The translations under genes and the position numbers were made by a program. This document shows, piece after piece, positions 22,550 to 53,762 of a stretch of DNA of 64,000 nucleotides. Every line of letters begins with the position of its first letter. The stretch's first letter is position 1. Origin of the DNA: Octopus vulgaris (lineage: Eukaryota); assembly GCA_951406725.2 (NCBI GenBank), contig OX597817.1, positions 6,014,001 to 6,078,000 on the forward strand, read 5' to 3'. The notes below the pieces were generated by a model. That model made no database searches, was not told where the DNA came from, and saw only the letters and a list, made by a program, of their open reading frames with translations.

Positions 22550-22927
22550 GTGGAGGCGCAATGGCCCAGTAGTTAGGGCAGCGGACTCGCGGTCATAGGA
22601 TCGCGGTTTCGATTCCCAGACCGGGCGTTGTGAGTGTTTATTGAGCGAAAACACCTAAAGCTCCACGAGGCTCCGGCAGGGGATGGTGGTGATCTCTGCT
22701 TTCACCACAACTTTCTCTCACTTTTTCTTCCTGTTTCTGTTGTACCTGTATTTCAAAGGGCCGGCCTTGTCACTCTCTGTGTCACGCTGAATATCCCCGA
22801 GAACTACGTTAAAGGTACACGTGTCTGTGGAGTGCTCAGCCACTTACACGTTAATTTCACGAGCAGGCTGTTCCGTTGATTCGGATCAACCGGAACCCTC
22901 GTCGTCGTAACCGACGGAGTGCTTCCA
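22550..22927 (+). mobile_element. Full-length tRNA-derived SINE with target-site duplication
   Basis: A and B boxes as in 928-1240 but with a different 3' half. TSD acatgtatat at 22540-22549 and 22927-22936. Confidence 0.9.
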
Positions 22928-24992: not shown

Positions 24993-25049
24993 CAATATTA
25001 TAATAATAGAAATAATAATAATAATAATAATGATAATAATATTAATAAA

Positions 25050-25083
<34 letters not shown>

Positions 25084-25110
25084 TTAATAATAATAATAAG
25101 AAGAAGAATG

Positions 25111-25150
<40 letters not shown>

Positions 25151-25166
25151 GAATAATAATAATAAT

Positions 25167-25198
<32 letters not shown>

Positions 25199-25223
25199 AC
25201 AACAACAACAATAACAATAAAAA
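24993..25223. repeat. Degenerate (AAT)n/(AAC)n tract at the left edge of the satellite
   Basis: Read directly from the sequence. Confidence 0.9.
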
Positions 25224-25610
25224 TAAACATTCTCCTCAAACATTTTCATCATACATTTTCATCAAACATTTTCACCAAACATTTTCATCAAACATTATCA
25301 TCAAACATTTTCATGAAACATTTTTCATCAAACATTTTCATCAAACATTTTCATCATACATTTTCATTATAGATTTTCATCAAACATTTTCATCAAACAT
25401 TTTCATCAAACATTTTCATCATAAATTTCTGTGTATATATATATATAAATTTTCACCGAAAATTTTACCCAAAAATTTTTCGAAAATTTTCATCGTAAAT
25501 TTTACCCAAAAATTTTTCGAAAATTTTACAAATATTTTTCGAAAATTTTTGCCCAAAATTTTGCCCAAAAATTTTTCGAAAATTTTACCCAAAACTTTTC
25601 ATCAACAATT

Positions 25611-25716
25611 TGTGTGTGTGCCCGCGCGCGTATATATGAGTGTATGTGTCCGATTATGTGAATCTTAAAGGCCAGCTAAGGAGAATCATGTGTAACCAAC
25701 CATGAAGAACAAATCA
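25611..25716 (+). repeat. Cassette 2, first of six copies (others 26943-27107, 30281-30386, 31543-31709, 34206-34314, 35380-35545)
   Basis: (TG)n-cccgcgcgc...gaatcttaaaggccagctaaggagaatcat(at)gtgtaaccaaccatgaagaacaaatca, occurring once per subunit in alternating A and B variants. Confidence 0.9.
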
Positions 25717-26336
25717 GAAAAATTTTACCCAAAAATTTTCCTAAAATTTTCACCAAAAATTTTACCCAAAATTTTCACCGAAAATTTTACCCAAATATTT
25801 TTTGAAACTTTTTGCCGAAAATTTTACCCAAAAATTTTTCGAAAATTTTCATCAAAAATTTTCCCCCAATATGTGATGGTCATCAAACATTTTCATCTAA
25901 CATTTTCATCACACATTTTAATCAAACATTTTCATCAAAAATTTAATCAAACATTTTCATCAAACATTTTTCATCAAACATTTATCATCAAACATTTTCA
26001 TCAAACATTATCATCGAACATTTTCATAAAACATTTATCTGCAAACATATATCATCAAACATTTATCATCAAACATTTATATGATATATGTTTATATATC
26101 ATCAAACATTTTTCATCAAATATTTTCCTCAAACATTTATTATCAAACATTTAGCATCAAACATTTTCATCAAACATTTTCATCAAACATTTATTATCAA
26201 ACATTTATCATCAAACATTTTCATCAAACATTTTCATCAAACATTTTCAAACATTTTCATCAAACATTTTCAAACATTTTCATCATAAATTTCTGTGTAT
26301 ATATAGCGTGAATTCTGGTTTACTACTACAGTCAAG

Positions 26337-26464
26337 ATGCCTCACCATCCACGATACACCAGATTCTGCTTTACACTTAACAACTATGACGATGTCGACG
26401 TTTATAGACGTTTGATGATAAATGTTTGCATATGCCGCATATTCGTTATATGGTTTTTCAAAAA
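26337..26464 (+). pseudogene. rep: CRESS-DNA-virus-like Rep N-terminal fragment, type B (frameshifted)
   Basis: MPHHPRYTRFCFTLNNYDDVDVYR, then an 18-nt inverted Sat1 insert, then HMPHIRYMVFQK in a shifted frame. Confidence 0.65.
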
Positions 26465-29400
26465 TTTTACCCGAAAATTTTACCCAAAAATTTTTTGAAA
26501 ATTTTTACCGAAAATTTTACCCAAACATTTTTCGAAAATTCTCACCGAAAATTTTACCCAAAAATATTTCGAAAATTCTCACCGAAAATTTAACCCAAAA
26601 ATTTTTCGAAAATTTTCACAAAAAATTTTTCGAAAATTTTCACCGAATATATTTCGAAAATTTTCACCGAATATTTTCCCCAAAAATTTTTCGAAAATTT
26701 TCACCGAATATTTTAGCAAAAAATTTTTCGAAAATTTTCACCGAAAATTTTCCCCAAAAATTTTTTGAAAATTTTCACTAAAAATTTTTCGAAAATTTTC
26801 CCCAAAAATTTTTCGAAAATTTTACCCAAAAATTTTTCGAAAATTATCACCGAAAATTTTACCCAAAAGTTTTTCGAAAATTTTCACCGAAAATTTTACA
26901 CAAATATTTTTCGAAAATTTTTACCAAAAATTTTCCCCCAATATGTGAGCGTGTGTAGATTTTATATATGTGTATGTATGTGAATGTATATATGTGTGTG
27001 TGTGTGTGCCCGCGCGCGCATATATGCGTGTATGTGTCCGAGTGTTGAATCTTAAAGGCCAGCTAAGGAGAATCATATGTGTAACCAACCATGAAGAACA
27101 AATCACAGAAAAATTTTACCCAAAAATTTTCTTAAAATTTTCACCGAAAATTTTACCCGAATATTTTTCGAAACTTTTTGCCGAAAATTTTGCCCAAAAA
27201 TTTTTCGAAAATTTTACCCAGAAATTTTCACCAACAATTTTTCGAAAATTTTCACCGAATATTTTCACCAAAAACTTTCCCCGAATATGTGATGGTCATC
27301 AAACATTTTCATCTAACATTTTCATCAAACATTTATCATCAAACATTTATCATCAAACATTTTCATCAAATGTTTGATGAAAATGTTTGAGGAAAATATT
27401 TGATGAAAAATGTTTGATGATATATGTTTGAAGATAAATGTTTTATGAAATGTTCGATGATAATCATCGAACATTTTCATAAAACATTTATCTTCAAGCA
27501 TTTATCATCAGACATTTATCATCAAACATTTTCATCAAACATTTATTATGAAACAATTTCATCAAACATTTACATCAAGCATTTTTAATCAAATATTTTC
27601 ATCAAACATTTTCATCAAACATTTATCATCAAACATTTTCATCAAACATTTTCATTTAACATCTTCATCAAACATTTTCATCAGACATTATCATCTCACA
27701 TTTTCATCAAACAGTATCATCGAACATATTCATAAAACATTTATCTTCAAACATTTATCATCAAACATTTATCATCAAACATTTTCATCAAACATTTTTA
27801 TCATGAAACATTTTCATCAAACATTTTCATCAAACATTTATCATCAAACATTCTCCTCAAATATTTTCATCAAAAAATTTCCATCAAACATTTATCATCA
27901 AACATTTTCATCTAACATCTTTATCAAACATTTTCATCAAACATTTTCATCTAACATCTTCATCAAACATTTTCATCAGACATTATCATCGAACATATTC
28001 ATAAAACATTTATCTTCAAACATTTATGATCAAACATTTTCATCTAACATTTTCATCAAACATTTTAATCAAACATTTTAATCAAACAATTTCATCAAAC
28101 ATTTTCATCTAACATTTTTTATCAAACATTTTCATCAAACACTTTCATCAAACATTTTCATCAAACATTTTTCATCATATATTTATCATCAAACATTTTC
28201 ATCAAACATTTTCATCAAACATTTATTATCAAACATTTATCATCAAACATTTTCATCAAACATTTAGCATGAATCATTTTCATCAAATATTTTTCATTAA
28301 ACATTTTCATCAAACAATTATCATCAAACATTTTCATCAGACATTATCATCTCACATTTTCATGAAACATTACCATCAAACAGTATCATCGAACATATTC
28401 ATAAAACATTTATCTTCAAACATTTATCATCAAACATTTATCATCAAACATCTTCATCAAACATTTTTATCATGAAACATTTTCATCAAACATTTTCATC
28501 AAACATTTATCATCAAACATTCTCCTCAAATATTTTCATCAAAAAATTTCCATCAAACAGTATCATCGAACATATTCATAAAACATTTTTTATCAAACAC
28601 TTTCATCAAACATTTATTATCAAACATTTTCATCAAACATTTATCATCAAACATTTTCATCAAACATTTATTATCAAACATTTTCATCAAACATTTATCA
28701 TCAAACATTTTCATCAAACATTTTCATCAAACATTTTTCATGAAACATTTATCATCAAACATTTTTCATCAAACATTTATCATCAAATATTTTCATCAAA
28801 CACTTTCATCAAACATTTTCATCAAACATTTTTCATCATATATTTATCATCAAACATTTTCATCAAACGTTTTCATCAAACATTTATCATGAAACATTTT
28901 CATCAAATATGTTAAATCATCAAACATTTTCATCAAACATTTTCACCAAACTTTTCATCAAACATTTTCATCAAACATTTTCATCAAACATTTTCATCAA
29001 ACATTTTCATCAAACATTTTCATTTAACATCTTCATCAAACATTTTCATCAAACATTTTCATCAAACATTTTCATCAAATATGTTTCATTAAACATTTAT
29101 CACCAAACATTTTCATCAAACATTTTCACCAAACATTTTCATCAAACATTTTCATGAAACATTTTCATCAAATATTTTTCATTAAACATTTTCATCAAAC
29201 AATTATCATCAAACAATTATCATCAAACATTTTCATCAGACATTATCATCTCAGATTTTCATGAAACATTACCATCAAACAGTATCATCGAACATATTCA
29301 TAAAACATTTATCTTCAAACATTTATCAAACATTTATCATCAAACATTTATCATCAAACATTCTCCTCAAATATTTTCATCAAAAAATTTCCATCAAACA

Positions 29401-29781
29401 TTTATCATCAAACATTTTCATCAAACATTTTCATCAAACATTTTTCATCAAACATTTATCATCAAACATTTTCATCAAACACTTTCATCAAACATTTTCA
29501 TCAAACATTTTTCATCATATATTTATCATCAAACATTTTCATCAAACGTTTTCATCAAACATTTATCATGAAACATTTTCATCAAATATGTTTCATTAAA
29601 CATTTATCATCAAACATTTTCACCAAACGTTTTCATCAAACATTTTCATCAAACATTTTCATCAAACATTTTTCATCAAACATTTTCATCAAACATTTTC
29701 ATCAAACATTTTCATCAAACATTTTCATCATAAATTTCTCTGTATATATAGAGTGAATTCTGGTTTACTACTACAGTTAAG

Positions 29782-29895
29782 ATGCCTCACCATCCACGAT
29801 ACACCAGATTCTGCTTTACACTTAACAACTATGACGATGTCGACGTTTATAGACTTCAGCATATGCAGCATATTCTTTATATGGTTTTTCAAAAA
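29782..29895 (+). pseudogene. rep: CRESS-DNA-virus-like Rep N-terminal fragment, type A (38 intact codons)
   Basis: MPHHPRYTRFCFTLNNYDDVDVYRLQHMQHILYMVFQK. It has RCR motif I (xFTLNN) near the start Met and a YxVFQx strand at the usual spacing. It runs into Sat2 before motif II. Confidence 0.72.
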
Positions 29896-30999
29896 TTTTA
29901 CCCGAAAATTTTACCCAAAAATTTTTTTGGAAATTTTCACCGAAATTTTACACCAAAAATTCTTCGAAATTTTCACCGAAAATTTTACCCAAAAATTTTT
30001 TCGAAAATTTTTCCCGAAAATTTTACCCAAAAATTTTTCGAAAATTCTCACCGAAAATTTTACCCAAAAATTTTTCGAAAATTCTCACCGAAAATTTTCA
30101 CCAAAAATTTTTCGAAAATTTTCACCGAAAATTTTACCTAAAAATTTTTCGAAAATTTTCATCGTAAATTTTACCCAAAAATTTTTCGAAAATTTTACAC
30201 AAATATTTTTCGAAAATTTTTGCCCAAAATTTTGCCCAAAAATTTTTCGAAAATTTTACCCAAAACTTTTCATCAACAATTAGTGTGTGTGCCCGCGCGC
30301 GTATATATGAGTGTATGTGTCCGATTATGTGAATCTTAAAGGCCAGCTAAGGAGAATCATGTGTAACCAACCATGAAGAACAAATCAGAAAAATTTTACC
30401 CAAAAATTTTCCTAAAATTTTCACCAAAAATTTTACCCAAAATTTTCACCGAAAATTTTACCCAAATATTTTTTGAAACTTTTTGCCGAAAATTTTACCC
30501 AAAATTTTTCGAAAATTTTCATCAAAAATTTTCCCCCAATATGTGATGGTCATCAAACATTTTCATCTAACATTTTCATCACACATTTTAATCAAACATT
30601 TTCATCAAAAATTTAATCAAACATTTTCATCAAACATTTTTCATCAAACATTTATCATCAAACATTTTCATCAAACATTATCATCGAACATTTTCATAAA
30701 ACATTTATCTTCAAATATTTTCATGAAACATTTATCTTCAAACATATATCATCAAACATTTTTCATCAAATAATTTCCTCAAACATTTATTATCAAACAT
30801 TTTCATCAAACATTTATCATCAAACATTTTCATCAAACATTTTCATCAAACATTTATTATCAAACATTTATCATCAAACATTTTCATCAAACATTTTCAT
30901 CAAACATTTTCAAACATTTTCATCAAACATTTTCAAACATTTTCATCATAAATTTCTGTGTATATATAGCGTGAATTCTGGTTTACTACTACAGTCAAG

Positions 31000-31127
31000 A
31001 TGCCTCACCATCCACGATACACAAGATTCTGCTTTACACTTAACAACTATGACGATGTCGACGTTTATAGACGTTTGATGATAAATGTTTGCATATGCCG
31101 CATATTCGTTATATGGTTTTTCAAAAA
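31000..31127 (+). pseudogene. rep: Rep N-terminal fragment, type B
   Basis: ORF 31000 (motif I) plus ORF 31089 (HMPHIRYMVFQK). Confidence 0.65.
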
Positions 31128-33720
31128 TTTTACCCGAAAATTTTTCGAAAATTCTCACCGAAAATTTTACTCAAAAATTTTTCGAAAATTCAAACCGAAA
31201 ATTTTACCCAAAAGTTTTTCGAAAATTTTCACAAAAAATTTTTCGAAAATTTTCACCGAATATTTTCCCCAAAAATTTTTCAAAAATTTTCACCGAAAAT
31301 TTTCACCGAATATTTTAGCAAAAAATTTTTCGAAAATTTTCACCGAAAATTTTACCCAAAAATTTTTCGAAAATTTTCACTAAAAATTTTTCGAAAATTT
31401 TCCCCAAAAATTTTTCGAAAATTTTACCCAAAAATTTTTCAAAAATTTTCACCGAAACTTTTACCCAAAAGTTTTTCGAAAATTTTCACCGAAAATTTTA
31501 CACAAATATTTTTCGAAAATTTTTACCAAAAATTTTCCCCCAATATGTGAGCGTGTGTAGATTTTATATATGTGTATGTATGTGAATGTATATATGTGTG
31601 TGTGTGTGTGCCCGCGCGCGCATATATGCGTGTATGTGTCCGAGTGTTGAATCTTAAAGGCCATCTAAGGAGAATCATATGTGTAACCAACCATGAAGAA
31701 CAAATCACAGAAAAATTTTACCCAAAAATTTTCTTAAAATTTTCACCGAAAATTTTACCCAGAAATTTTCACCAACAATTTTTCGAAAATTTTCACCGAA
31801 TATTTTCACCAAAAATTTTCCCCCAATATGTGATGGTCATCAAAAATTTTCATCTAACATTTTCATCATACATTTTAATCAAACATTTTCATCAAAAATT
31901 TAATCAAACATTTTCATCAAACATTTTCATCAAACATTTTTCATCAAACATTTTCATCAAACATTTATCATCAAACATTTATCATCAAACATTTTCATCA
32001 AATGTTTGAGGAAAATATTTGAGGAAAATATTTGATGAAAAATGTTTGATATATGTTTGAAGATAAATGTTTTATGAAATGTTCGATGATAATCATCGAA
32101 CATTTTCATAAAACATTTATCTTCAAGCATTTTTCATCAAATATTTTCCTCAAACATTTTCATCAAGCATTTATTATCAAATATTTTCATCAAACATTTA
32201 CATCAAATATTTTCATCAAACATTTTCATCAGACATTATCATCTCACATTTTCATCAATCAGTATCATCGAACATATTCATAAAACATTTATCTTCAAAC
32301 ATTTATCATCAAACATTTATCATCACACATCTTCATCAAACATTTTTATCATGAAACATTTTCATCAAACATTTTCATCAAACATTTATCATCAAACATT
32401 CTCCTGAAATATTTTCATGAAACATTTCCATCAAACAGTATCATCGAACATATTCATAAAACATTTTTTATCAAACACTTTCATCAAACATTTATTATCA
32501 AACATTTTCATCAAACATTTTCATCAAACATTTTCATCAAACTTTTATCATCAAGCATTTTCCTCAAACGTTTTCATCAAACATTTTCATGAAACATTTT
32601 CATGAAATATTTTTCATTAAACATTTTCATCAAACAATTATCATCAAACATTTTCATCAGACGTTATCATCTCAGATTTTCATGAAACATTACCATCAAA
32701 CAGTATCATCGAACATATTCATAAAACATTTATCTTCAAACATTTATCCTCAAACATTTATCATCAAACATTTTCATCAAACATTTTTATCATGAAACAT
32801 TTTCATCAAACATTTTCATCAAACATTTATCATCAAACATTCTCCTCAAATATTTTCATCAAAAAATTTCCATCAAACATTTTTCATCAAACATTTTCAT
32901 CAAACATTTTTCATCAAACATTTATCATCAAACATTTTCATCAAATACTTTCATCAAACATTTTCATCAAACATTTTTCATCATATATTTATCATCAAAC
33001 ATTTTCATCAAACGTTTTCATCAAACATTTATCATGAAACATTTTCATCAAATATTTTTCATTAAACATTTTCATCGAACAATTATCATCAAACATTTTC
33101 ATCAGACATTATCATTTCACATTTTCATGAAACATTACCATCAAACAGTATCATCGAACATGTTCATATAACATTTATCTTCAGACATTTATCATCAAAC
33201 ATTTTCATCTAACATTTATCATGAAACATTTTCATCTAACATTTTCATCAAACGTTTTCATCAAACATTTTTATCATGAAACATTTTCATCAAACATTTT
33301 CATCAAACATTTATCATCAAACATTTATCATGAAACATTTTCATCAAACATTTTCATCAAACATTTATCATCAAACATTTATCATGAAACATTTTCATCA
33401 AACATTTTTATCATGAAACATTTTCATCAAACATTTTCATCAAACATTTATCATCAAACATTCTCCTCAAATATTTTCATCAAAAAATTTCCATCAAACA
33501 TTTATCATCAAACATTTTCATCAAACATTTCATCAAACATTTTTCATCAAACATTTATCATCAAACATTTTCATCAAATACTTTCATCAAACATTTTCAT
33601 CAAACATTTTTCATCATATATTTATCATCAAACATTTTCATCAAACATTTTCATCAAACATTTTCATCATAAATTTCTCTGTATATATAGAGTGAATTCT
33701 GGTTTACTACTACATTTAAG

Positions 33721-33834
33721 ATGCCTCACCATCCACGATACACCAGATTCTGCTTTACACTTAACAACTATGACGATGTCGACGTTTATAGACTTCAGCA
33801 TATGCAGCATATTCTTTATATGGTTTTTCAAAAA
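33721..33834 (+). pseudogene. rep: Rep N-terminal fragment, type A
   Basis: Same 38 aa as 29782-29895. Confidence 0.72.
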
Positions 33835-34957
33835 TTTTACCCGAAAATTTTACCCAAAAATTTTTTGGAAATTTTCACCGAAAATTTACACCAAAAATTC
33901 TTCGAAATTTTCAACGAAAATTTTACCCAAAACTTTTTCGAAAATTTTTCCCGAAAATTTTACCCAAAAATTTTTCCAAAATTCTCACCGAAAATTTTCA
34001 CCAAAAATTTTTCGAAAATTTTCCCTAAAAATTTTTCGAAAACTTTTACCGAAAATTTTACCCAAAAATTTATCGAAAATTTTCATCGTAAATTTTACCC
34101 AAAAATTTTTCGAAAATTTTACACAAATATTTTTCGAAAATTTTTGCCCAAAATTTTGCCCAAAAATTTTTCGAAAATTTTACCCAAAACTTTTCATCAA
34201 CAATTTGTGTGTGTGCTTGCGCGCGTATATATGAGTGTATGTGTCCGATTATGTGAATCTTAAAGGCCAGCTAAGGAGAATCATATGTGTAACCAACCAT
34301 GAAGAACAAATCACAAAAATTTTACCCAAAAATTTTCCTAAAATTTTCACCAAAAATTTTACCCAAAATTTTCACCGAAAATTTTACCCAAATATTTTTT
34401 GAAACTTTTTGCCGAAAATTTTACCCAAAAATTTTTCGAAAATTTTCATCAAAAATTTTCACCCAATATGTGATGGTCATCAAACATTTTCATCTAACAT
34501 TTTCATCACACATTTTAATCAAACATTTTCATCAAACATTTTTCATCAAACATTTATCATCAAACATTTTCATCAAACATTATCATCGAACATTTTCATA
34601 AAACATTTATCTTCAAACATTTATCATCAAACATTTATCTTCAAACATATATCATCAAACATTTTTCATCAAATATTTTCCTCAAACATTTATTATCAAA
34701 CATTTATCATCAAACATTTTTCATCAAATATTTTCCTCAAACATTTATTATCAAACATTTATCATCAAACATTTTCATCAAACATTTTCATCAAACATTT
34801 ATTATCAAACATTTATCATCAAACATTTTCATCAAACATTTTCATCAAACATTTTCATCAAACATTTTCAAACATTTTCATCAAACATTTTCAAACATTT
34901 TCATCATAAATTTCTGTGTATATATAGCGTGAATTCTGGTTTACTACTACAGTCAAG

Positions 34958-35085
34958 ATGCCTCACCATCCACGATACACAAGATTCTGCTTTACACTTA
35001 ACAACTATGACGATGTCGACGTTTATAGACGTTTGATGATAAATGTTTGCATATGCCGCATATTCGTTATATGGTTTTTCAAAAA
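34958..35085 (+). pseudogene. rep: Rep N-terminal fragment, type B
   Basis: ORF 34958 (motif I) plus ORF 35047 (HMPHIRYMVFQK). Confidence 0.65.
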
Positions 35086-36750
35086 TTTTACCCGAAAATT
35101 TTTCAAAAATTCTCACCGAAAATTTTACTCAAAAATTTTTCGAAAATTCTCACCGAAAATTTTACCCAAAAATTTTTAGAAAATTTTCACAAAAAATTTT
35201 CCGAAAATTTTCACCGAATATATTTCGAAAATTTTCACCGAATATTTTCCCCCAAAATTTTTCGAAAATTTTCACTGAAAATTTTCACCGAATATTTTAG
35301 CAAAAAATTTTTCGAAAATTTTCACCGAAAATTTTACACAAATATTTTTCGAAAATTTTTACCAAAAATTTTCCCCTAATATGTGAGCGTGTGTAGATTT
35401 TATATATGTGTATGTATGTGAATGTATATATGTGTGTGTGTGTGTGCCCGCGCGCGCATATATGCGTGTATGTGTCCAAGTGTTGAATCTTAAAGGCCAG
35501 CTAAGGAGAATCATATGTGTAACCAACCATGAAGAACAAATCACAGAAAAATTTTACCCATAAATTTTCTTAAAATTTTCACCGAAAATTTTACCCGAAT
35601 ATTTTTCGAAACTTTTTGCCGAAAATTTTGCCTAAAAATTTTTCGAAAATTTTACCCAGAAATTATCACCAACAATTTTCGAAAATTTTCACCGAATATT
35701 TTCACCAAAAACTTTCCCCCAATATGTGATGGTCATCAAACATTTTCATCTAACATTTTCATCATACATTTTTCATCAAACATTTTAATCAAACATTTAT
35801 CATCAAACATTTATCATCAAACATTTTCATCAAATGTTTGATGAAAATATTTGAGGAAAATATTTGATGAAAAATGTTTGATATATGTTTGAAGATAAAT
35901 GTTTTATGAAATGTTCGATGATAATCATCGAACATTTTCATAAAACATTTATCTTCAAGCATTTATCATCAGACATTTATCATCAAACATTTTCATCAAA
36001 CATTTATTATGAAACAATTTCATCAAACATTCACATCAAGCATTTTTCATCAAATATTTTCCTCAAACATTTTCATCAAACATTTATTATCAAATATTTT
36101 CATCAAACATTTTCATCAAATATTTTCATCAAACATTTTCATCAGACATTATCATCTCACATTTTCATGAAACAGTATCATCGAACATATTCATAAAACA
36201 TTTATTTTCAAACATTAATCATCAAACATTTATCATCAAACATTTTCATCAAACATTTTTATCATGAAACATTTTCATCAAACATTTTCATCAAACATTT
36301 ATCATCAAACATTCTCCTCAAATATTTTCATCAAAAAATTTCCATCAAACATTTATCATCAAACATTTTCATCTAACATCTTTATCAAACATTTTCATCA
36401 AACATTTTCATCTAACATCTTCATCAAACATTTATCTTCAAACATTTATCATCAAACATTTATCATCAAACATTTTTATCATGAAACATTTTCATCAAAC
36501 ATTTTCATCAAACATTTATCATCAAACATTCTCCTTAAATATTTTCATAAAATAATTTCCATCAAACAGTATCATCGAACATATTCATAAAAAATTTTTT
36601 ATCAAACACTTTCATCAAACATTTATTATCAAACATTCTCATCAAACATTTTTCATCAAACATTTATCATCAAACATTTTCATCAAACATTTTCATCAAA
36701 CATTTACCATCAAACATTTTCATCAATTTCTTTCATCAAACATTTTCATC

Positions 36751-36850
36751 NNNNNNNNNNNNNNNNNNNNNNNNNNNNNNNNNNNNNNNNNNNNNNNNNN
36801 NNNNNNNNNNNNNNNNNNNNNNNNNNNNNNNNNNNNNNNNNNNNNNNNNN
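36751..36850. other. Assembly gap (100 N)
   Basis: Run of 100 n characters; the true gap size is unknown. Confidence 1.
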
Positions 36851-39800
36851 TAAACATTTATCATCAAATATTTTCACCAAACGTTTTCATCAAACATTTT
36901 CATCAAACATTTTCATCAAACTTTTATCATCAAGCATTTTCCTCAAACGTTTTCATCAAACATTTTCATGAAACATTTTCATCAAATATTTTTCATCAAA
37001 CATTTTCATCAAACATTTTCATCAAACATTTTCATCAAACATTTTTATCATGAAACATTTTCCTCAAACATTTTCATCATATTTATCATCAAACATTCTC
37101 CTCAAATATTTTCATTAAACATTTTCATCAAACAATTATCATCAAACATTTTCATCAGACATTATCATCTCAGATTTTCATGAAACATTACCACCAAACA
37201 GTATCATCGAACATATTCATAAAACATTTATCTTCAAACATTTATCCTCAAACATTTATCATCAAACATTTTCATCAAACTTTTTTATCATGAAACATTT
37301 TCATCAAACATTTTCATCAAACATTTATCATCAAACATTCTCCTCAAATATTTTCATCAAAAAATTTCCATCAAACATTTATAATCAAACATTTTCATCA
37401 AACATTTTCATCAAACATTTTCATCAAATACTTTCATCAAACATTTTCATCAAACATTTTTCATCATATATTTATCATCAAACATTTTCATCAAAAGTTT
37501 TCATCAAACATTTATCATGAAACATTTTCATCAAATATTTTTCATTAAACATTTTCATCGAACAATTATCATTTCATCAGACATTATCATCTCACATTTT
37601 CATGAAACATTACCATCAAACAGTATCATCGAACATGTTCATATAACATTTATCTTCAGACATTTATCATCAAACATTTTCATCTAACATTTATCATGAA
37701 ACATTTTCATCTAACATTTTCATCAAACGTTTTCATCAAACATTTTTATCATGAAACATTTTCATCAAACATTTATCATCAAACATTCTCCTCAAATATT
37801 TTCATCAAACAAATTTCATCAAACATTTTCATCAAACATTTATCATCAAACATTTTCATCAAACATTTTCATCAAACATTTTTTATCAAACATTTATCAT
37901 CAAACATTTTTATCAAACACTTTCATCAAACATTTTCATCAAACATTTTTCATCATATATTTATCATCAAACATTTTCATCAAACGTTTTCATCAAACAT
38001 TTATCATGAAACATTTTCATCAAACATGTTTCATTTATCATCAAACATTTTCACCAATACGTTTTCATCAAACATTTTCATCAAACATTTTCATCAAACT
38101 TTTATCATCAAACATTTTCATCAAACATTTTTATCAAACATTTTTCATGAAACATTTTCATCAAATATTTTTCATGAAAATCATTTTCATCAAACATTTT
38201 CATCAAACATTTTTATCATGAAACATTTTCATCAAACATTTTTCATCAAACATTTTCATCAAACATTTTCATCAAACATTTTTTATCAAACACTTTTACA
38301 TCAAACATTTATTATCAAACATTTTTCCATCAAACATTTATCATCAAACATTTCATCAACATTTTCATCAGACAATTTTTCATCAAACATTTTCATCAAA
38401 CATTTTCATCAAACATTTCATCAAACATTTTCATCAAACATTTTCATCATATTTTATGAACATTTTCATCAAAACATTTTTCATCAAACATTTTCATCAA
38501 ACATTTTCATCAAACATTTTCATCAACATTTTCAAAACATTTTCATCAACATTTTTCATCAAACATTTATCATGAAATATTTTCACCAAACATTTTCATC
38601 AAACATTTTCATCAAACATTTTTCATCAAACATTTTTATCATCAAGCATTTTCATCAAACATTTTTCACATTTTCATCAGACAAACATTTTCATCAAACA
38701 TTTTCATCAAATATTTTTCATCAAACATTTTCATCAAACATTTTCATCAAACATTTTCATCAAACATTTTTATCATGAAACATTTTCATCAAACATTTTC
38801 ATCGAACATTTATCATCAAACATTCTCCTCAAACATTTTCATCAAACATTTTCATCAAACAATTATCATCAAACATTTTCATCAGACATTATCATCTCAA
38901 ACATTTTCATGAAACATTTTCATCAAACATTTTCATCAAACATATTTTTCATAAAACATTTATCTTCAACATTTATCATCAAACATTTATCATCAAACAT
39001 TTCCATCAAACATTTTTCATCAAACATTTATCATCAAACATTTTTCATCAAACATTTATCATCAAACATTCTCCTCATATATTTTAATAAAAAATTTCCA
39101 TCAAACATTTATAATCAAACATTTTCATCAAACATTTTCATCAAACATTTTTAAACTTTTATCATCAAGCATTTTCATCAAACATTTTCATCAAACATTT
39201 TCATCAAACATTTTTCATCATATATTTATCATCAAACATTTTCATCAAAAGTTTTCATCAAACATTTATCATCAAACATTTTCATCAAATATTTTTCATT
39301 AAACATTTTCATCGAACAATTATCATCAAACATTTTCAAACATTATCATCTCAAACATGAAACATTACCATCAAACAGTATCATCGAACATGTTCATGTA
39401 ACATTTATCAAGACATTTATCATCAAACATTTTCATCTAACATTTATCATGAAACATTTTCATCAAACATTTTCATCAAACGTTTTCATCAAACATTTTT
39501 ATCATGAAACATTTTCATCAAACATTTATCATCAAACATTCTCCTCAAATATTTTCATCAAAAAATTTCCATCAAACATTTATCATCAAACATTTTCATC
39601 AAACATTTTCATCAAACATTTTCATCAAACATTTATCATCAAACATTTTCATCAAACACTTTCATCAAACATTTTCATCAAACATTTTTCATCATATATT
39701 TATCATCAAACATTTTCATCAAACGTTTTCATCAAACATTTATCATGAAACATTTCATCAAACATTTTCATCAACAATTTCATCGACATTTTCATGAAAC

Positions 39801-42800
39801 ATTTTCATCAAACATTTTTCATCAAACATTTTTATCAAACATTCATCAAACATTTTCATCAAACATTTTCATCAAACATTTTCATCATTTTTATCAAACA
39901 TTTTCATCAAACATTTTCATCAAACATTTTCATCAAACATTTTCATCAAACATTTTCATGAAACATTTTCATCAAACATTTTTCATCAAACATTTTATCA
40001 TGAAACATTTTCATCAAACATTTTCATCAAACATTTATCATCAAACATTCTCCTCAAATATTTTCATTAAACATTTTCATCAAATAATCATCATCAAACA
40101 TTTTCATCAGACATTACCATCTCAGATTTTCATGAAACATTACTATCAAACAGTATCATCGAACATATTCATAAAACATTTATCTTCAAACATTAATCCT
40201 CAAACATTTATCAAACATTTTCATCGAACATTTTTATCATGAAACATTTTCATCAAACATTTTCATCAAACATTTATCATCAAACATTCTCTTCAAATAT
40301 TTTCATCAAAAAATTTCCATCAAACATTTATCATCAAACATTTTTCATCAAGACATTTATCATCAAACATTTTCATCAAATCATTTTCATCAAACATTTT
40401 CATCAAACATTTCATCAAACATTTTCATCAACATTTTCATCAACATTTTAATCAAACATTTTCATCAAGCATTTTCTGAAAACATTTTCATCAAACATTT
40501 TCATCAAACATTTTCATCAAACATTTTCATCAAACATTTTCCATCAAACATTTTCATCAAACATTTTCATGAAAAATTTTCATCAAACATTTTTCATTAA
40601 ACATTTTCATCAAACATTTATCATCAAAAATTTTCATCAAACATTTTCATCAGACATTTTCATCATCTTAACATTTTCATCAAACATTTTTCCATCAAAC
40701 ATTTTCATCAAACATTTTCATCAAACATTTTTCATCAAACATTTTCATCAAACATTTTCATCAAACATTTTCATCAAACATTTTTATCATGAAACATTTT
40801 CATCAAACATTTTCATCAAACATTTTCATCAAACATTTTCAAAACATTTTTATCAAACATTTTCATCAAACATTTATCATCAAACATTTTCATCAAACAT
40901 TTTCATCAAACATTTTCATCAAACATTTTCATCAAACATTTTTCATCAAACATTTTCATCATCATCAACATTTCATCAAACATTTTCATCAAACATTTTC
41001 ATCAAACATTTTCATCAAATATTTATCATCAAACATTTTCATCAAACATTTCATCAAACATTTATCATGAAACATTTTCATCAAATTTTTTTCATTAAAC
41101 ATTTATCATCAAATATTTTCACCAAACGTTTTCATCAAACATTTTCATCAAAGATTTTTCATCATATATTTATCATCAAGCATTTTCCTCAAACGTTTTC
41201 ATCAAACATTTTCATCAAACATTTTCATCAAACATTTTCATCAAACATTTTCATCAAACATTTTTCATCAAACATTTTCATCAAACATTTTTATCATCAA
41301 ACATTTTCATCAAACATTTTCATCGAACATTTATCATCAAACATTCTCCCCAAATATTTTCATTAAACATTTTCATCAAACAATTATCATCAAACATTTT
41401 CATCAAACATTTCATCTCATTTTCATGAAACATTACCATCAAACAGTTTCATCGAACATATTCATAAAACATTTATCTTCAAACATTTATCCTCAAACAT
41501 TTATCATCAAACATTTTCATCAAACTTTTTTATCATGAAACATTTTCATCAAACATTTTCATCAAACATTTATCATCAAACATTCTCCTCAAATATTTTC
41601 ATCAAAAAATTTCCATCAAACATTTATCATCAAACATTTTCATCAAACATTTTCATCAAACATTTTTCATCAAACATTTATCATCAAACATTTTCATCAA
41701 ATACTTTCATCAAACATTTTCATCAAACATTTTCATCATATATTTATCATCAAACATTTTCATCAAACATTTTTCATCAAACATTTATCATGAAACATTG
41801 TTCATCAAACATTTTCATCATTTTCAAACATTCATCAAATATTTTCATTAAACATTTTCATCAAACATTTTCATCAAACATTTTCATCAAACATTTTCAT
41901 CAAACATTTTCATGAAACATTTTCATCAAACATTTTCATCAAACATTTTCATCAGACAATTTCATCATTTTCATCAAACAATTTCATCACACATTTATCA
42001 TCAAACATTTTCACCAAATCAAATATTTTCGTTTTTCATCAAACATTTTCATCAAACATTTTCATCAAACATTTTATCAAACATTTTCATCAAACGTTTT
42101 CATCAAACATTTTCATGAAACATTTTCATCAAATATTTTTCATCAAACATTTTCATCAAACATTTTCATCAAACATTTTCATCAAACATTTTTATCATGA
42201 AACATTTTCATCAAACATTTTCATCATCAAACATTTATCATCAAACATTTTCATCAAATATTTCAGACATATTTACCAAACATTTTCATCAAACAATTAT
42301 CATCAAACATTTTCATCAAACATTTCATCATCAAACATTTTCATCAAACATTTTCATCAAACATTTTCATCAAACATTTTCATAAAACATTTTCAAACAT
42401 TTATCATCAAACATTTATCATCAAACATTTTCATCAAACATTTTTATCATGAAACATTTTCATCAAACATTTTCATCAAACATTTTCATCAAACATTCAT
42501 CATGAAACATCAAATATTTTCATCAAAAAAATTTTCCATCAAACATTTATAATCAAACATTTTCATCAAACATTTTCATCAAACATTTTCATCAAAAATT
42601 TATCATCAAACATTTTCATCAAATACTTTCATCAAACATTTTCATCAAACATTTTTCATCATATATTTATCATCAAACATTTTCATCAAAAGTTTTCATC
42701 AAACATTTATCATGAAACATTTTCATCAAATATTTTTCATTAAACATTTTCATCGAACAATTATCATCAAACATTTTCATCAGACATTATCATCTCACAT

Positions 42801-45800
42801 TTTCATGAAACATTACCATCAAACAGTATCATCGAACATGTTCATATAACATTTATCTTCAAACATTTATCATCAAACATTTTCATCTAACATTTATCAT
42901 CAAACATTTTCATCTAACATTTTCATCAAACATTTTCATCAAACATTTTTATCATGAACATTTTCATCAAACATTTTCATCATCAAACATTTCTCCTCAA
43001 ATATTTTCATCAAACATTTCCATCAAACATTTATCATCAAACATTTTCATCAAACATTTTCATCAAACATTTTTTCATCAAACATTTATCATCAAACATT
43101 TTCATCAAACACTTTCATCAAACATTTTCATCAAACATTTTTCATCATATATTTATCATCAAACATTTTCATCAAACGTTTTCATCAAACATTTATCATG
43201 AAACATTTTCATCAAATATGTTTCATTTATCATCAAATATTTTCACCAAACGTTTTCATCAAACATTTTCATCAAAGATTTTTCATCATATATTTATCAT
43301 CAAGCATTTTCCTCAAACGTTTTCATCAAACATTTTCATGAAACATTTTCATCAAATATTTTTCATCAAACATTTTCATCAAACATTTTCATCAAACATT
43401 TTTATCATGAAACATTTTCATCAAACATTTTCATCAAACATTTATCATCAAACATTCTCCTCAAATATTTTCATTAAACATTTTCATCAAACAATTATCA
43501 TCAAACATTTTCATCAGACATTTTCATCAAACAGATTTTCATCAAACATTTTCATCAAACATTTTCATCGAACATTTTCATCAAACATTTATCATCAAAC
43601 ATTTTCATCAAACATTTTCATCAAACATTTTCATCAAACATTTTTATCATGAAACATTTTCATCAAACATTTTCATCAAACATTTATCATCAAACATTCT
43701 CTTCAAATATTTTCATCAAAAAATTTCCATCAAACATTTATCATCAAACATTTTTCATCAAACATTTATCATCAAACATTTTCATCAAACATTTTCATCA
43801 AATATGTTTCATTAAACATTTATCACCAAACATTTTCATCAAACATTTTCATCAACAACGTTTTCATCAAACATTTTCATCAAACATTTTTTCATCAAAC
43901 ATTTTTCATCAGACAAACATCATCAAAATATTTTCATTTTCATCAAACTCAAATATTTCAGAAATTTTCATCAAACGTATTTTCATCAGACATTTTCAGG
44001 AATTTTCAAAACATTTATCATGACAAACATTTTCTGTCAAACATTTCATCAAACATTTTCATCAGAAATTTTCATCAAAATGACATTTTTTTTGTATTTT
44101 TCATTTCATCAAAAATTTTCATTTTCTCATCAAACATTTTCCTCATTAAACATTTTCATCAAACAATTTTCATCAAATAATTATCATCAAACATTTTCAT
44201 CAGACATTATCATCTTAGATTTTCATGAAACATTACCATCAAACATTATCATCAAACATTTTTCATCAAACATTTATCGTAACATTTTCAAACATTTTCA
44301 TCAAACATTTTCATCAAACATTTTCATCAGACATTTTCATCAAACATTTTCATCAACATTTTTATTTTACTATCAAACATTTTCATCAAACATTTTCATC
44401 AAACATTATCAAATATTTTCAAACATATTCACAATATTTTCAAACATTTTCATCAAACATTTTTCATCAAACATTTATCATCAAACATTTTCATCAAACA
44501 TTTATCATCAAACATTTTCATCAAACATTTTCATCAAACATTTTTTCATCAAACATTTATCATCAAACATTTTCATCAAATATTTTAATTAAGCATGTTC
44601 ATCTAAAATTTTCATAAATATTTTCATCAAACATTTTCATCAAACAAATTCATCAAATATTTATCATCAAACATTTTCATCAAACGTTTTCATCAAACAT
44701 TTATCATGAAACATTTTCATCAAATTTTTTTCATTAAACATTTATCATCAAACATTTTCACCAAACGTTTTCATCAAACATTTTCATCAAACATTTTCAT
44801 CAAACTTTTATCATCAAGCATTTTCCTCAAACGTTTTCATCAAACATTTTCATGAAACATTTTCATCAAATATTTTCATCAAACATTTTCATCAAACATT
44901 TTCATCAAACATTTTCATCAAACATTTTTATCATGAAACATTTTCATCAAACATTTTCATCGAACATTTATCATCAAACATTCTCCTCAAATATTTTCAT
45001 TAAACATTTTCATCAAACATTTATCATCAAACATTTTCATCAAATTATTTTCTCAAATATTTTCATCAAACATTACCATCAAACAAATTTCATCAAACAT
45101 TTTCATCAAACATTTTCATCAAACATTTATCATCAAACATTTATCATTTTCAAAAACATTTTCATCAAACATTTTTTATCATGAAACATTTTCATCAAAC
45201 ATTTTCATCAAACATTTATCATCAAACATTCTCTTCAAATATTTTCATCAAAAAAATTTCCATCAAACATTTATCATCAAACATTTTCATCAAACATTTT
45301 CATCAAACATTTTTTCATCAAACATTTATCATCAAACATTTTCATCAAATACTTTCATCAAACATTTTCATCAAACATTTTTCATCATATATTTATCATC
45401 AAACATTTTCATCAAACGTTTTCATCAAACATTTTCATGAAACATTTTCATCAAATATTTTTCATCAAACATTTTCATCAAACAATTTTCATCAAACATT
45501 TTCATCAACATTATCATCTCACATTTTCATCAAATTACATCAAACATTATCATCAAACATTTCATATAACATTTATCATCAAACATTTATCATCAAACAT
45601 TTTCATCAAACATTTTCATCAAACATTTTCATCAAACATTTTCATCAAACATTTTCATCAAACATTTTTATCATGAAACATTTTCATCAAACATTTATCA
45701 TCAAACATTTTCATCAAATATTTTCATCAAACATTTCCATCAAACATTTATCATCAAACATTTTCATCAAACATTTTCATCAAACATTTTTTATCAAACA

Positions 45801-48800
45801 TTTATCATCAAACATTTTTATCAAACACTTTCATCAAACATTTTTCACATATTTATCATCAAACATTTTCATCAAACGTTTTTATCAAACATTTATCATG
45901 AAACATTTTCATCAAATATTTTCATCAAACATTTTTATCATTTTTCATCACATTTTCATCAAACATTTTCATCATGATAATTTCATCAAACATTTTCATC
46001 AAACATTTTCATCAAATATTTTCATGAAACATTTTCATCAAACAATTTTCATCAAACATTTTTATCAAACATTATCATCAACCATTTCATCAATCATTTT
46101 CATCAAACATTTTCATCAAACATTTTCATCAAACATTTTCATCAAACATTTTCATCAAACATTTCCATCAAACAATTTCATCAAACATTTCTATCAAACA
46201 TTTTCATCAAACATTTCCATCAAACATTTATCAAACAAATTCAATATTCATCAAACATTTCTCATTATTTTCATCTGACATTTTCATCAAACATTTTCAA
46301 ATATTTTCATTTTCGAAACATTTTCAACATTTTAATCAATCATCAAACATTAAAACATTTTCATCAAAAATTTTCATCAAATATTTATCAAATATTTTCA
46401 TCAGAACATTTTCATCAAACATTTTCATCAACATTTATCATCAAACATTTTCATCAAATATTTTAATCATTATCCAAATTCATCAAACATTTTCATCAAA
46501 CATTTTCATCAAACATTTTCATCAAACATTTTGTATCAGGACATTTTCATCAAACATTTTCAAATATTTTCATCAAACATTCTCTCTCAAACAATTTCAT
46601 CAAACATTTTTCATCAAACATTTTCATCAAACATTTTCATCAAACATTTTCATCAAACATTTTCATCAAACACCATTTCATCAAACATTTTCATCAAACA
46701 TTTTCATCAAACATTTTCATCAGACATTTTCATCAAACATTTTCATCAAACATTTTCATCAAACATTTAACATCAAACATTTTCATCAAACATTAATCAT
46801 CAAACATTTTCATCAAACATTTTCAAACATGAATCATGAAACATTACTCCTCAAGCTAAACATTTTTATCAAACATTTATCATCAAACATTTTCATCAAA
46901 ATTTTCATCAAACATTTTTCATCAAACATTTTCATCAAACTTTATCATGGTAAAGCATTTTCATCAAAATTTTCATCAAATATTTTCATCAAACATTTTC
47001 ATCAAACATTTTCATTAAACATTTTCATCAAACATTTTCATCAAACATTTATCATCAAACATTTTCATCAAACATTTATCATCTGTAGATTTTCATCAAA
47101 CATTTTCATCAACATTTCATGACATCATCGACATTTTCATCAAACATTTTCATCAAACATTTATCATCAAACATTTTCATCAAACATTTTCATCAAACAT
47201 TTTTATCATGAAACATTTTCATCAAACATTTTCATCAAACATTTATCATCAAACATTTTCATCAAACATTTTCATCAAACATTTTCATCAAACATTTTCA
47301 TCAAACATTTCATCAAACATTTTCATCAAACATTTTCATCAAACATTTTCATCAAACATTTTCATCAAACATTTTCATCAATATTTTCATCAAACATTTT
47401 CATCAAACAATTTCATCAAACATTTTCATCAAACATTTTCATCAAACATTTTCATCCCTGAACATTTTTCATCAAACATTTTCAATCAAATATTTTCATC
47501 AAACATTTTCATCAAATATTTTCATCAAACATTTTTATCATCAATGCATTTTCATCAAACATTTTCACAATACATTTCATCAAAATTTTCATCAACATTT
47601 TCATCAAATATTTTCATCAAACATTTCATCAAACATTTTCATCAAACATTTTCATCAAACATTTTTATCCCATCAAACATTTTCATCAAACATTTTCATC
47701 AAACATTTTCATCAAACATTTTCATCAAACACTTTCATCAAACATTTTCATCAAACATTTTTCATCATATATTTATCATCAAACATTTTCATCAAACATG
47801 TTTCATCAAACATTAATCATCAAACATTTTCATCAAATATTTTCATTAAACATTTTCATCAAACATTTTCATCAAACATTTTCATCAAACATTTCATCAA
47901 AGATTTTTTCATCATATTTTAATCCAGCATTTTCATCAAACATTTTCATCAAATATTTTTCATCAAACATTTTCATCAAATATTTTCATCAAACATTTTC
48001 ATCAAACATTTTCATCAAACATTTTCATCAAACATTTTTATCAAACATTTTTCATCAAACATTTTCATCAACATTTTCATCAAACATTCTCCTCAAATAT
48101 TTTCATCAAACATTTTCATCAAACATTTATCATCAAACATTTTCATCAGACAACCCTATCATCAAACAGATTTCAAAACATTTTCATCAAACATTTTCAT
48201 CAAACATTTTCATCAAAACATTTATCATCAAACATTTATCATCAAACATTTTCATCAAACATTTTCATCAAACATTTTCATCAAACATTTTCATCAAACA
48301 TTTTCATCAAACATTTATCATCAAACATTTTCATCAAATATTTTCATCAAACATTTTCATCAAACATTTTCATCAAACATTTTCATCAAACATTTTCATC
48401 AAACATTTTCATCAAACATTTATCATCAAACATTTATCATCAAATATTTTTCATCAAACATTTTCATCAAACATTTTCATCAAAATTTCCATCAAACATT
48501 TTCATCAAACATATTCATCAAACATTTATCATGAAACATTTTCATCAAATATTTTTCATCGAACATTTTCATCAAACATTTTCATCAAACAATTATCATC
48601 AAACATTATCATCTCACATTTTCATGAAACATTTTCATCAAACATTTTCAAGACAATTTTCATCAAACATATTTCATCAGAACCTGAATTTCACTCAAAC
48701 ATTTAATCAAACAGTTTCATCAAACATTTTCAAATAATTTCATGAAACATTCTCCTCTAACAATTTCATCAAACATTTTTGGCATCAAACATTTATCATC

Positions 48801-51970: not shown

Positions 51971-52040
<70 letters not shown>

Positions 52041-53617: not shown

Positions 53618-53620
<3 letters not shown>

Positions 53621-53715
<95 letters not shown>

Positions 53716-53762
53716 TATTATCATTATCATTATTATTAATATTATTATTATTATTATTAATA

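What the first reader, a model, noticed from the sequence alone, without database searches (positions are those of the whole stretch)
25224..36750. Ordered A/B dimeric higher-order repeat: Sat1 - Rep cassette - Sat2 - cassette 2 - Sat2 - aatatgtgatggt - Sat1
Seen: six subunits alternate A,B,A,B,A,B with a fixed module order. ATG spacings are A to B 1218 and 1237; B to A 3445 and 2721; B to B 4663 and 3958; A to A 3939. Diagnostic differences persist (cagttaag/catttaag vs cagtcaag before the ATG, Q/P and L/R codons, long vs short cassette 2). Inference: an ancestral monomer duplicated, diverged, and the dimer was then amplified. The unique cassettes mark the switches between the two satellites, which suggests a composite element rather than a random satellite.
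Basis: partly seen in the sequence, partly recalled or inferred. Interest (0 to 1): 0.7.

Follow-up and report, generated by a model that had tools for sequence, protein, structure and literature searches.

The report
Satellite repeat carrying a viral fragment
This is a stretch of animal repetitive DNA in which a short, dead piece of a small DNA virus's replication gene was caught between two satellite repeats and then copied along with them as an alternating two-part unit; it is probably a harmless fossil, not a working element.

Summary
The A/B higher-order repeat is real. Six units alternate and split A versus B at 100/100 support. All ATG spacings match. Corrections: only five units carry the Rep cassette (unit 1 has a 27-nt stub); cassette 2 lies inside Sat2 and marks no switch; the right end is a 100-N assembly gap, so copy number is unknown. 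The cassette is the first 36 codons of a CRESS-DNA-virus-type Rep. It is 62% identical to P0003 (E 1.4e-7), a Pfam Viral_Rep above cut-off. It holds motif I only and stops about 10 residues before motif II. B copies are frameshifted by an inverted Sat1 piece. No origin hairpin was found. Best reading: a dead endogenous viral fragment captured in a 13-bp satellite, duplicated, diverged about 4-6%, then amplified passively as a dimer by unequal exchange. It resembles tandem geminivirus fossils in Nicotiana and composite satellite repeats in nematodes. A Rep-driven rolling-circle element is not excluded but is poorly supported. A region further right (49.7-52.8 kb) looks like an assembly chimera. 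Host taxon (octopus-like) is my recall, untested.

The parts
25000..25223 (+). (AAT)n microsatellite abutting the left end of the array
25224..25420 (+). Sat1 (13-bp monomer), first block
25421..25447 (+). Unit 1: stub of the cassette-1 leader only; no Rep codons
25448..25602 (+). Unit 1: A-type tail of Sat2 block a (1 mismatch in 153 to each A unit)
25603..25716 (+). Unit 1: short (A) cassette 2
25717..25880 (+). Unit 1: Sat2 block b plus 13-nt junction (25868-25880)
25881..26284 (+). Short Sat1 block (follows A, precedes B)
26285..26458 (+). Unit 2 (B) cassette 1: leader plus Rep 5' fragment, ATG 26337; frameshifted by an inverted Sat1 piece at 26410-26427
26459..26939 (+). Unit 2 Sat2 block a (12/13/37-bp palindrome-rich repeat)
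26940..27105 (+). Unit 2 long (B) cassette 2; begins with the same 9 nt as the junction; 5' half is host-like (TG)n/(CG)n sequence; no protein family found
27106..27296 (+). Unit 2 Sat2 block b plus junction (27284-27296)
27297..29729 (+). Long Sat1 block (follows B) with internal variant order and an inverted segment at 27368-27463 forming fold-back hairpins
29730..29889 (+). Unit 3 (A) cassette 1: leader plus 36 Rep-like codons, ATG 29782; NANTANTAC-type 9-mer at 29766 without a stable stem
29890..30550 (+). Unit 3 Sat2a (to 30273), short cassette 2 (30274-30387), Sat2b, junction (30538-30550)
30551..30947 (+). Short Sat1 block
30948..31837 (+). Unit 4 (B): cassette 1 30948-31121 (ATG 31000, inverted Sat1 piece 31073-31090), Sat2a, long cassette 2 31542-31707, Sat2b, junction 31825-31837
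31838..33668 (+). Long Sat1 block with inverted segment at about 32000-32093
33669..34477 (+). Unit 5 (A): cassette 1 33669-33828 (ATG 33721), Sat2a, short cassette 2 34198-34313, Sat2b, junction 34465-34477
34478..34905 (+). Short Sat1 block
34906..35733 (+). Unit 6 (B): cassette 1 34906-35079 (ATG 34958, inverted Sat1 piece 35031-35048), Sat2a, long cassette 2 35378-35543, Sat2b, junction 35721-35733
35734..36750 (+). Long Sat1 block with inverted segment 35832-35924, cut off by the gap
36751..36850 (.). 100-N assembly gap
36851..49735 (+). Cassette-free Sat1 array related to the long Sat1 blocks
49758..52769 (+). Near-exact collinear copy of pieces of 58272-62330 interleaved with Sat1; probable assembly chimera
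52769..53621 (+). Last Sat1 block, followed by (TTA)n at 53620-53894

Best explanation
It is a passively amplified composite satellite higher-order repeat that carries a dead endogenous viral fragment. Step 1 (homology shown, capture inferred): the 5' end of a CRESS-DNA-virus-type rep gene, about 52 nt of leader plus 36 codons, became joined to a 13-bp satellite (Sat1) and a probably related palindrome-rich satellite (Sat2). A second short unique piece (cassette 2), partly host-like, sits inside Sat2. Step 2 (shown by sequence): this monomer duplicated, and the copies diverged about 4-6% in the cassettes. B gained an inverted Sat1 piece inside the Rep fragment and an inversion in the Sat1 block that follows it; template switching is the inferred cause. 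Step 3 (block duplication shown, mechanism inferred): the A+B dimer was multiplied at least three times by unequal exchange or break-induced copying, while slippage and unequal exchange changed the Sat1 and Sat2 block lengths by whole monomers. It makes no working Rep and does nothing active; the cassettes ride along as markers.
For: Rep homology: Viral_Rep PF02407 is the only family of 24736 hit by the 36-aa A peptide, at profile positions 2-28 (E 0.16, below cut-off). phmmer finds P0002 (74%, E 9.6e-10) and P0003 (62%, E 1.4e-7) among 4 hits in 1.84 billion proteins. P0003 is Viral_Rep at 38.3 bits versus cut-off 26 and matches solved circovirus-type Rep structures, best 2hw0 at E 2.7e-6. 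The peptide also aligns to the N-termini of two more distant Viral_Rep proteins, P0005 and P0006, above 5000 of 5000 shuffles each. Dead: it ends at P0005 residue 37 while motif II is at 48; there is no motif II-like or Walker A pattern in the three + frames; 3 of 5 copies are frameshifted. Dimer: tree 100/100. The three blocks spanning the A-to-B junction differ by 23/1549, 32/1496 and 31/1427. Inverted Sat1 follows 3 of 3 B units and 0 of 3 A units. Many indels between same-type copies are of 13, 24-25, 50 or 61 nt, the satellite periods. Relationships conflict along the array: one cassette-1 site joins units 4+6, while one cassette-2-to-junction site and the long Sat1 blocks join 2+6 (2.2% versus 4.9-5.0%). 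This is what unequal exchange gives. No excess conservation of the coding part: P 0.10-0.24 for the longest run without an A/B difference.
Against: The direct Pfam hit of the cassette is below the family cut-off, so the assignment leans on P0002 and P0003, which are unnamed and themselves look frame-disrupted. The other two phmmer hits (P0001, P0004) are repetitive proteins unrelated to Rep, so the search does yield spurious hits. The only NANTANTAC-type 9-mer in 25224-36750 lies 16 nt before each Rep ATG (5 of 5 copies), where a viral origin would be, which a purely passive story does not need. Codons 1-24 show no A/B difference. Alignments inside satellite are ambiguous, so the mosaic signal is soft. 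Only three dimers are seen, and the assembly nearby is unreliable.
Confidence: 0.72

Rival explanations
1. A non-autonomous rolling-circle element: the leader keeps a degenerate viral origin that a Rep supplied in trans (from a virus or an intact endogenous copy) nicks, and rolling-circle copying made the head-to-tail units, as suggested for geminivirus-related DNA or Helitron-like carriers of satellites.
For: The 9-mer of the recalled pattern NANTANTAC sits 16 nt upstream of all 5 Rep ATGs and nowhere else in the region; in B copies a 3-bp stem closes an 11-nt loop around it. The units are head-to-tail. Tandem truncated rep plus origin arrays are known in Nicotiana (PMC5014472 passages), and mollusc satellites occur inside Helitron-superfamily elements (PMC5139131 abstract).
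Against: The leader folds no better than shuffles on either strand (z +0.5 to +1.6; 141-195 of 200 shuffles fold as well). The 9-mer is a simple triplet repeat; by my rough estimate the chance of one in the leader is about 0.07. CTRR sites behind hairpins are scattered inside Sat2 and recur at no unit end (18 sites listed). Unit lengths vary by whole satellite monomers. There are no cassette copies outside 25224-36750 in the window.
Confidence: 0.1
2. The order and copy number are partly an assembly product: real A and B units exist, but the assembler or polisher collapsed or stitched them.
For: The array ends in a 100-N gap. The region 49758-52769 consists of near-exact collinear pieces of 58272-62330 with Sat1 threaded between them (34 exact runs, summed 2498 nt with some overlap), typical of consensus or polishing error. 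Microsatellites abut both ends of the array.
Against: The pre-gap part shows no such mosaic. Each unit has private substitutions and whole-monomer indels, same-type blocks differ by 1.5-2.2%, and junctions recur base for base 5-6 times. Collapse would make copies identical, not distinct.
Confidence: 0.1
3. A co-opted antiviral memory locus: the viral fragment is kept and amplified because the array, with its fold-back inversions, yields small RNAs against the virus family.
For: Strong hairpins at the Sat1 inversions (z -12.4, 0 of 200 shuffles). Tandem endogenous geminiviral repeats in yam give siRNAs (PMC5014472 passages). The first 24 codons show no A/B difference.
Against: The hairpins are made of satellite, not viral sequence. 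The viral part is under 10% of the array. The conserved run is not significant (P 0.10-0.24). No expression data are available.
Confidence: 0.05
4. The cassette is not viral and the Rep likeness is chance.
For: The direct Pfam E is only 0.16, and there is no PDB hit at E up to 10 for the 36-aa peptide.
Against: 62-74% identity from the first Met to two library proteins, one a Viral_Rep above cut-off, and above-shuffle alignment to two more distant Reps.
Confidence: 0.03

Closest known systems
Geminivirus-related DNA (GRD3/GRD5/GRD53) of Nicotiana and EGV1 of Dioscorea (PMC5014472, passages read)
   Same: Endogenous, truncated, degenerate rep fragments of a circular ssDNA virus, clustered as direct repeats in a host chromosome.
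   Different: GRD units carry a v-ori-like sequence and geminiviral rep; here the fragment is 36 codons of a PF02407-type rep, no origin hairpin was found, most of each unit is satellite, and units form an A/B dimer in an animal-like genome.
Endogenous circoviral / CRESS-DNA elements of animals, including bivalves and gastropods (PMC6069186, passages; PMC3198968, passages)
   Same: Rep-derived, truncated fossils in non-coding host DNA.
   Different: The passages seen list 1-4 sequences per mollusc species; the words octopus, cephalopod and tandem do not occur in the main text of PMC6069186, and tandem does not occur in that of PMC3198968. Here the fossil is a repeated module of a satellite.
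Complex higher-order repeats built of different satellite DNAs in Meloidogyne (PMC3694981, abstract); alpha-satellite dimeric HORs (recalled)
   Same: A larger repeat made of diverged subunits and more than one satellite, with fixed short motifs at junctions, next to simple arrays of the same satellite.
   Different: Monomers here are 13 bp and about 37 bp, with virus-derived and unique spacers; no centromere link was tested.
Helitron/Helentron-associated satellites of molluscs (PMC5139131, abstract) and Replitrons (PMC10288648, abstract and opening of the introduction)
   Same: Rolling-circle-related sequence combined with short tandem arrays.
   Different: No RepHel or Replitron transposase, no recurring Helitron-type end was found, and the peptide matches CRESS-virus Viral_Rep.

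Membership tests
Endogenous CRESS-DNA (PF02407 Rep) viral element | Sequence homology to CRESS Rep | tested here: met
   direct Pfam hit below cut-off; clear through P0003, P0005, P0006
Endogenous CRESS-DNA (PF02407 Rep) viral element | Embedded in host chromosomal DNA | tested here: inconclusive
   Contiguous on the left with microsatellite- and retroelement-rich DNA, and Sat1 is inserted in the cassette; no reads to confirm the join
Endogenous CRESS-DNA (PF02407 Rep) viral element | Placement in a named virus family by phylogeny | not testable with these tools
   36 residues are too few; no close full-length relative was found
Functional CRESS Rep / autonomous replicon | RCR motif I | tested here: met
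   Matches profile positions 2-28 of PF02407
Functional CRESS Rep / autonomous replicon | Motif II (HUH), motif III (catalytic Tyr) and SF3 helicase | tested here: not met
   The fragment ends about 10 residues before motif II; no motif II-like or Walker A pattern in + frames; cassette 2 has no family hit
Functional CRESS Rep / autonomous replicon | Origin stem-loop with nonanucleotide | tested here: inconclusive
   Pattern-matching 9-mer 16 nt before the ATG in 5 of 5 copies, but no stable stem; the pattern is recalled
GRD-type tandem viral fossil | Direct repeats of truncated rep | tested here: met
   5 head-to-tail copies
GRD-type tandem viral fossil | Geminiviral rep and v-ori hairpin in each unit | tested here: not met
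   Rep type is PF02407, and no hairpin
Satellite higher-order repeat | Same-position subunits more alike than neighbours | tested here: met
   Cassette-2 core A/B 4-7 of about 105 versus 0-2 within type; tree 100/100
Satellite higher-order repeat | Long array of many HOR copies | tested here: inconclusive
   Only about three dimers before a gap
Satellite higher-order repeat | Centromeric location / CENP-A binding | not testable with these tools
   No chromatin or cytogenetic data
Non-autonomous Helitron/Helentron | 3' hairpin plus CTRR end recurring at a unit boundary | tested here: not met
   18 CTRR sites behind hairpins, all within or at the edge of Sat2, none a recurring unit end; the rule is partly recalled and partly
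Non-autonomous Helitron/Helentron | Dispersed copies with conserved termini | not testable with these tools
   No eukaryotic genome collection; none elsewhere in the window
Replitron | Y1 Rep transposase with oligomerisation domain; short terminal direct repeats | tested here: not met
   No such ORF in the region; terminal repeats were not tested separately

The most novel reading that the evidence does not exclude
The unit is a virus-derived, non-autonomous rolling-circle element of an animal (probably cephalopod) genome. It keeps a degenerate CRESS origin and rep leader, is nicked in trans by a related Rep, and carries and amplifies host satellites as head-to-tail A/B units, which would make a ssDNA virus origin a driver of satellite-array growth.
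Probability: 0.07. Interest if true: 0.75.

Novelty: new variant of a known kind. Interest (0 to 1): 0.32.

Why it matters
As a fossil it shows a CRESS-type virus lineage in this animal's germ line. If the host is a cephalopod, as I recall from its repeat landscape but did not test, my searches found no earlier report of that. It also gives unique markers that record how a satellite array grew: monomer duplication, template-switch inversions, then dimer amplification. The markers make a hard-to-assemble array easy to probe by FISH or long reads. It would matter much more if a Rep in trans were shown to amplify the array, linking ssDNA virus origins to satellite expansion.

Tried and rejected
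Cassette 2 as the Rep helicase or C-terminus: no Pfam family for 4 of 4 translations scanned (and one), no PDB hit at E up to 10, ESM Atlas best score 0.80, which is chance level. Not supported; its 5' half matches host (TG)n/(CG)n sequence elsewhere in the window. Origin hairpin at the leader: not better than shuffles. Purifying selection on the coding part: not significant. Structured RNA or tRNA: 0 Rfam hits at gathering score and 0 tRNAs in the window. Close full-length Rep: none by the word-indexed searches (lengths 99-315, no candidate, 0 of 18 candidates, 4 of 12 candidates, all 167 aa or shorter); these are weak negatives. Prokaryotic source or contamination: 0 of 115 pattern matches in GTDB genomes encode a relative of P0003. 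P0001 and P0004 were dropped as repetitive chance hits. The long ORFs across the satellites are stop-poor frames of the repeats, not genes (inference). Sat2 as a derivative of Sat1: modest support only, 24 of 1000 shuffled-monomer arrays score as high. PMC6011040 was checked by passages and is irrelevant. Sources and names of the relatives' clusters could not be looked up. No supplements were read; lists of endogenous elements in supplements of PMC6069186 or PMC3198968 could hold cephalopod entries.
Full report
Setting. The window is AT-rich DNA full of (AT)n, (AAT)n and (TATC)n microsatellites. It holds a reverse-transcriptase ORF at 60592-61503 (RVT_1, E 2e-6) and a repeated SINE-like sequence (16137-16354 matches 50406-50622 at 89%). 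Rfam and ARAGORN found nothing. It is an animal genome by inference; my recall of this repeat landscape says octopus, but no call tests that.

Observation. The region 25224-36750 has the module order Sat1 - cassette 1 - Sat2a - cassette 2 - Sat2b - 13-nt junction. Sat1 is a 13-bp satellite; Sat2 is a palindrome-rich 12/13/37-bp repeat. Rep-like ATGs occur five times: 26337, 29782, 31000, 33721 and 34958. Cassette 2 and the junction occur six times. Unit 1 has only a 27-nt stub of the cassette-1 leader joined to an A-type Sat2a tail, so there are six units but five Rep cassettes. Cassette 2 sits between two Sat2 blocks and marks no switch. No cassette or Sat2 copy occurs outside 25224-36750 in the window at up to 4 mismatches in 24 nt.

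A versus B. In cassette 1, 8 of 10 variable gap-free columns split A from B; three belong to the edge of the B insertion. In cassette 2 to junction, 24 of 36 do. The cassette-2 core differs at 4-7 of about 105 sites between types (3 pairs) and 0-2 within types (5 pairs). An ML tree of the six units on the shared cassette-2-to-junction part gives A|B 100/100. Alternation alone is weak evidence (2 of 20 orderings). The dimer is shown by blocks: the three stretches from A cassette 2 through the whole following B unit differ by 23/1549, 32/1496 and 31/1427, and in the two pairs tested 93-94% of a block is covered by exact 20-mers of the next. The Sat1 block after A is always short (397-428 nt); the block after B is long (2433, 1831, and at least 1017 nt) and holds an inverted segment of about 95 nt in 3 of 3 cases. 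The inversion best matches forward sequence in the short blocks for two of the three copies, and it forms fold-back hairpins (z -12.4), the pattern expected of template switching (inference). Dimer length varies from 3.9 to 4.7 kb with satellite content.

The Rep cassette. The 36-codon A peptide hits only Viral_Rep (PF02407) among 24736 Pfam families, at profile positions 2-28, E 0.16, below the cut-off; it has no PDB hit at E up to 10. A full phmmer scan of 1.84 billion representatives gave 4 hits. Two are repetitive and unrelated; two align from the first Met: P0002 (74%) and P0003 (62%). P0003 is Viral_Rep at 38.3 bits against a cut-off of 26 and matches six solved Rep sequences at E 2.7e-6 to 3e-4 among 8 listed. 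Both relatives lack an in-frame motif II, so they look frame-disrupted, as fossils or as sequence errors. The peptide also aligns to P0005 and P0006, more distant Viral_Rep proteins, above all 5000 shuffles each; it ends at P0005 residue 37, while motif II lies at 48. So the cassette holds motif I only. The three + frames of the region have no motif II-like or Walker A pattern; a loose motif III pattern hits 5 times in + frames and 24 times in - frames and is uninformative. In the three B copies the frame is broken after codon 24 by an 18-nt piece whose reverse complement occurs 114 times in Sat1; the satellite has thus invaded the cassette, which argues that they have evolved together. No close full-length Rep was found (weak negatives), nor a relative in GTDB genomes (0 of 115 pattern matches).

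Origin of replication. The only match in the region to the recalled CRESS nonamer pattern NANTANTAC lies 16 nt before each of the five ATGs. It is a simple triplet repeat, and the leader folds no better than shuffles on either strand in A or B (z +0.5 to +1.6). This is inconclusive: a decayed origin is possible, a working one is unsupported. A scan for Helitron-type CTRR ends behind hairpins listed 18 sites, all within or at the edge of Sat2 and none at a recurring unit end.

Cassette 2 and Sat2. Cassette 2 gives no family, structure or atlas lead, and its 5' half resembles host microsatellite-like DNA in the flanks. The long B form starts with the same 9 nt as the junction, so both Sat2 blocks of B end alike, which hints at an older internal duplication. 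Sat2 aligns to a Sat1 array better than all but 24 of 1000 shuffled-monomer arrays, modest support for common descent.

Context and reliability. The array is cut at 36750 by a 100-N gap, so the number of dimers is a minimum. Beyond it, Sat1 runs without cassettes to about 49735. Of the non-canonical 30-mers of the long blocks after units 2 and 4, 55% and 62% recur there, against 18-26% for the short blocks and 31% for the cut block after unit 6; the spacers and the plain array are one family, and the direction of descent is unknown. From 49758 to 52769 the sequence is a collinear, near-exact copy of pieces of 58272-62330 with Sat1 threaded between them (34 exact runs), most simply a consensus or polishing chimera. 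PMC5139131 (abstract) describes fragmented monomers alternating with anonymous DNA at real mollusc satellite edges, so a biological cause is not excluded, but the near identity to a sequence 8.5 kb away favours artefact. The pre-gap A/B part shows no such mosaic and has private variants, so I take it as real pending reads.

Mechanism. Shown: Rep homology and truncation, A/B clustering, block duplication of the dimer, length change by satellite monomers, Sat1 inversions. Inferred: capture of the viral 5' end by non-homologous repair or template switching, and dimer amplification by unequal exchange or break-induced copying; conflicting affinities among units 2, 4 and 6 fit this. I put passive amplification at 0.72, Rep-driven rolling-circle copying at 0.10, partly artefactual order at 0.10, small-RNA memory at 0.05 and chance likeness at 0.03. 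The lack of A/B differences in codons 1-24 is not significant (P 0.10-0.24).

Comparison with known systems. Tandem arrays of truncated rep with origin-like sequence are known in Nicotiana and yam (PMC5014472, passages). CRESS-type fossils are known in bivalves and gastropods (PMC6069186, passages) and broadly in eukaryotes (PMC3198968, passages). Higher-order repeats made of different satellites with fixed junction motifs are known in Meloidogyne (PMC3694981, abstract). Replitrons and Helitrons need transposase features absent here (PMC10288648, abstract and opening of the introduction). Nine literature searches (listings only, except the papers named) showed no report of a CRESS rep fragment as a module of a satellite higher-order repeat, nor of cephalopod CRESS fossils. 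The library lacks most subscription papers, and no supplements were read.

Verdict. Real, correctly described in the main, with three corrections. It is an endogenous CRESS-Rep fragment inside a composite dimeric satellite repeat: a new variant of known kinds, most likely inert. Interest 0.32.

Noticed in passing
window 49758-52769 versus 58272-62330: Collinear near-exact copy of downstream unique DNA with Sat1 pieces threaded in, part of it twice (50188 and 52321 share 449 exact nt); probably an assembly or polishing chimera, a warning for other findings in this scaffold.
   Followed up: yes
window 36851-49735: 12.9-kb cassette-free Sat1 array with recurring variant runs; it becomes less regular towards 46-49 kb (unique 20-mer share up to 0.46-0.51 per kb).
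   Followed up: partly
window 25000-25223 and 53620-53894: The whole satellite array is flanked directly by (AAT)n on the left and (TTA)n on the right, in opposite orientation; this may be real or a mis-join through microsatellites.
   Followed up: no
window 60592-61503: 303-aa ORF with the C-terminal part of a reverse transcriptase (RVT_1, E 2e-6); a LINE remnant, RTE-like by recall.
   Followed up: partly
window 16137-16354, 50406-50622, 52539-52755, about 59070-59290; also about 22550-22890: SINE-like repeats (the first matches the chimera copies at 89%); they resemble octopus tRNA-derived SINEs by recall only.
   Followed up: no
proteins P0002, P0003: Two unnamed close relatives of the cassette extend further into Rep but lack an in-frame motif II, suggesting a wider family of decayed copies of the same virus lineage.
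   Followed up: partly
window 26940, 31542, 35378: The long cassette 2 starts with the same 9 nt as the Sat2-to-Sat1 junction, hinting at an older internal duplication of the monomer.
   Followed up: partly
protein P0001: 2848-aa protein of about 59-aa tandem repeats that scored against the cassette through 40 weak stretches; treated as a chance hit.
   Followed up: no
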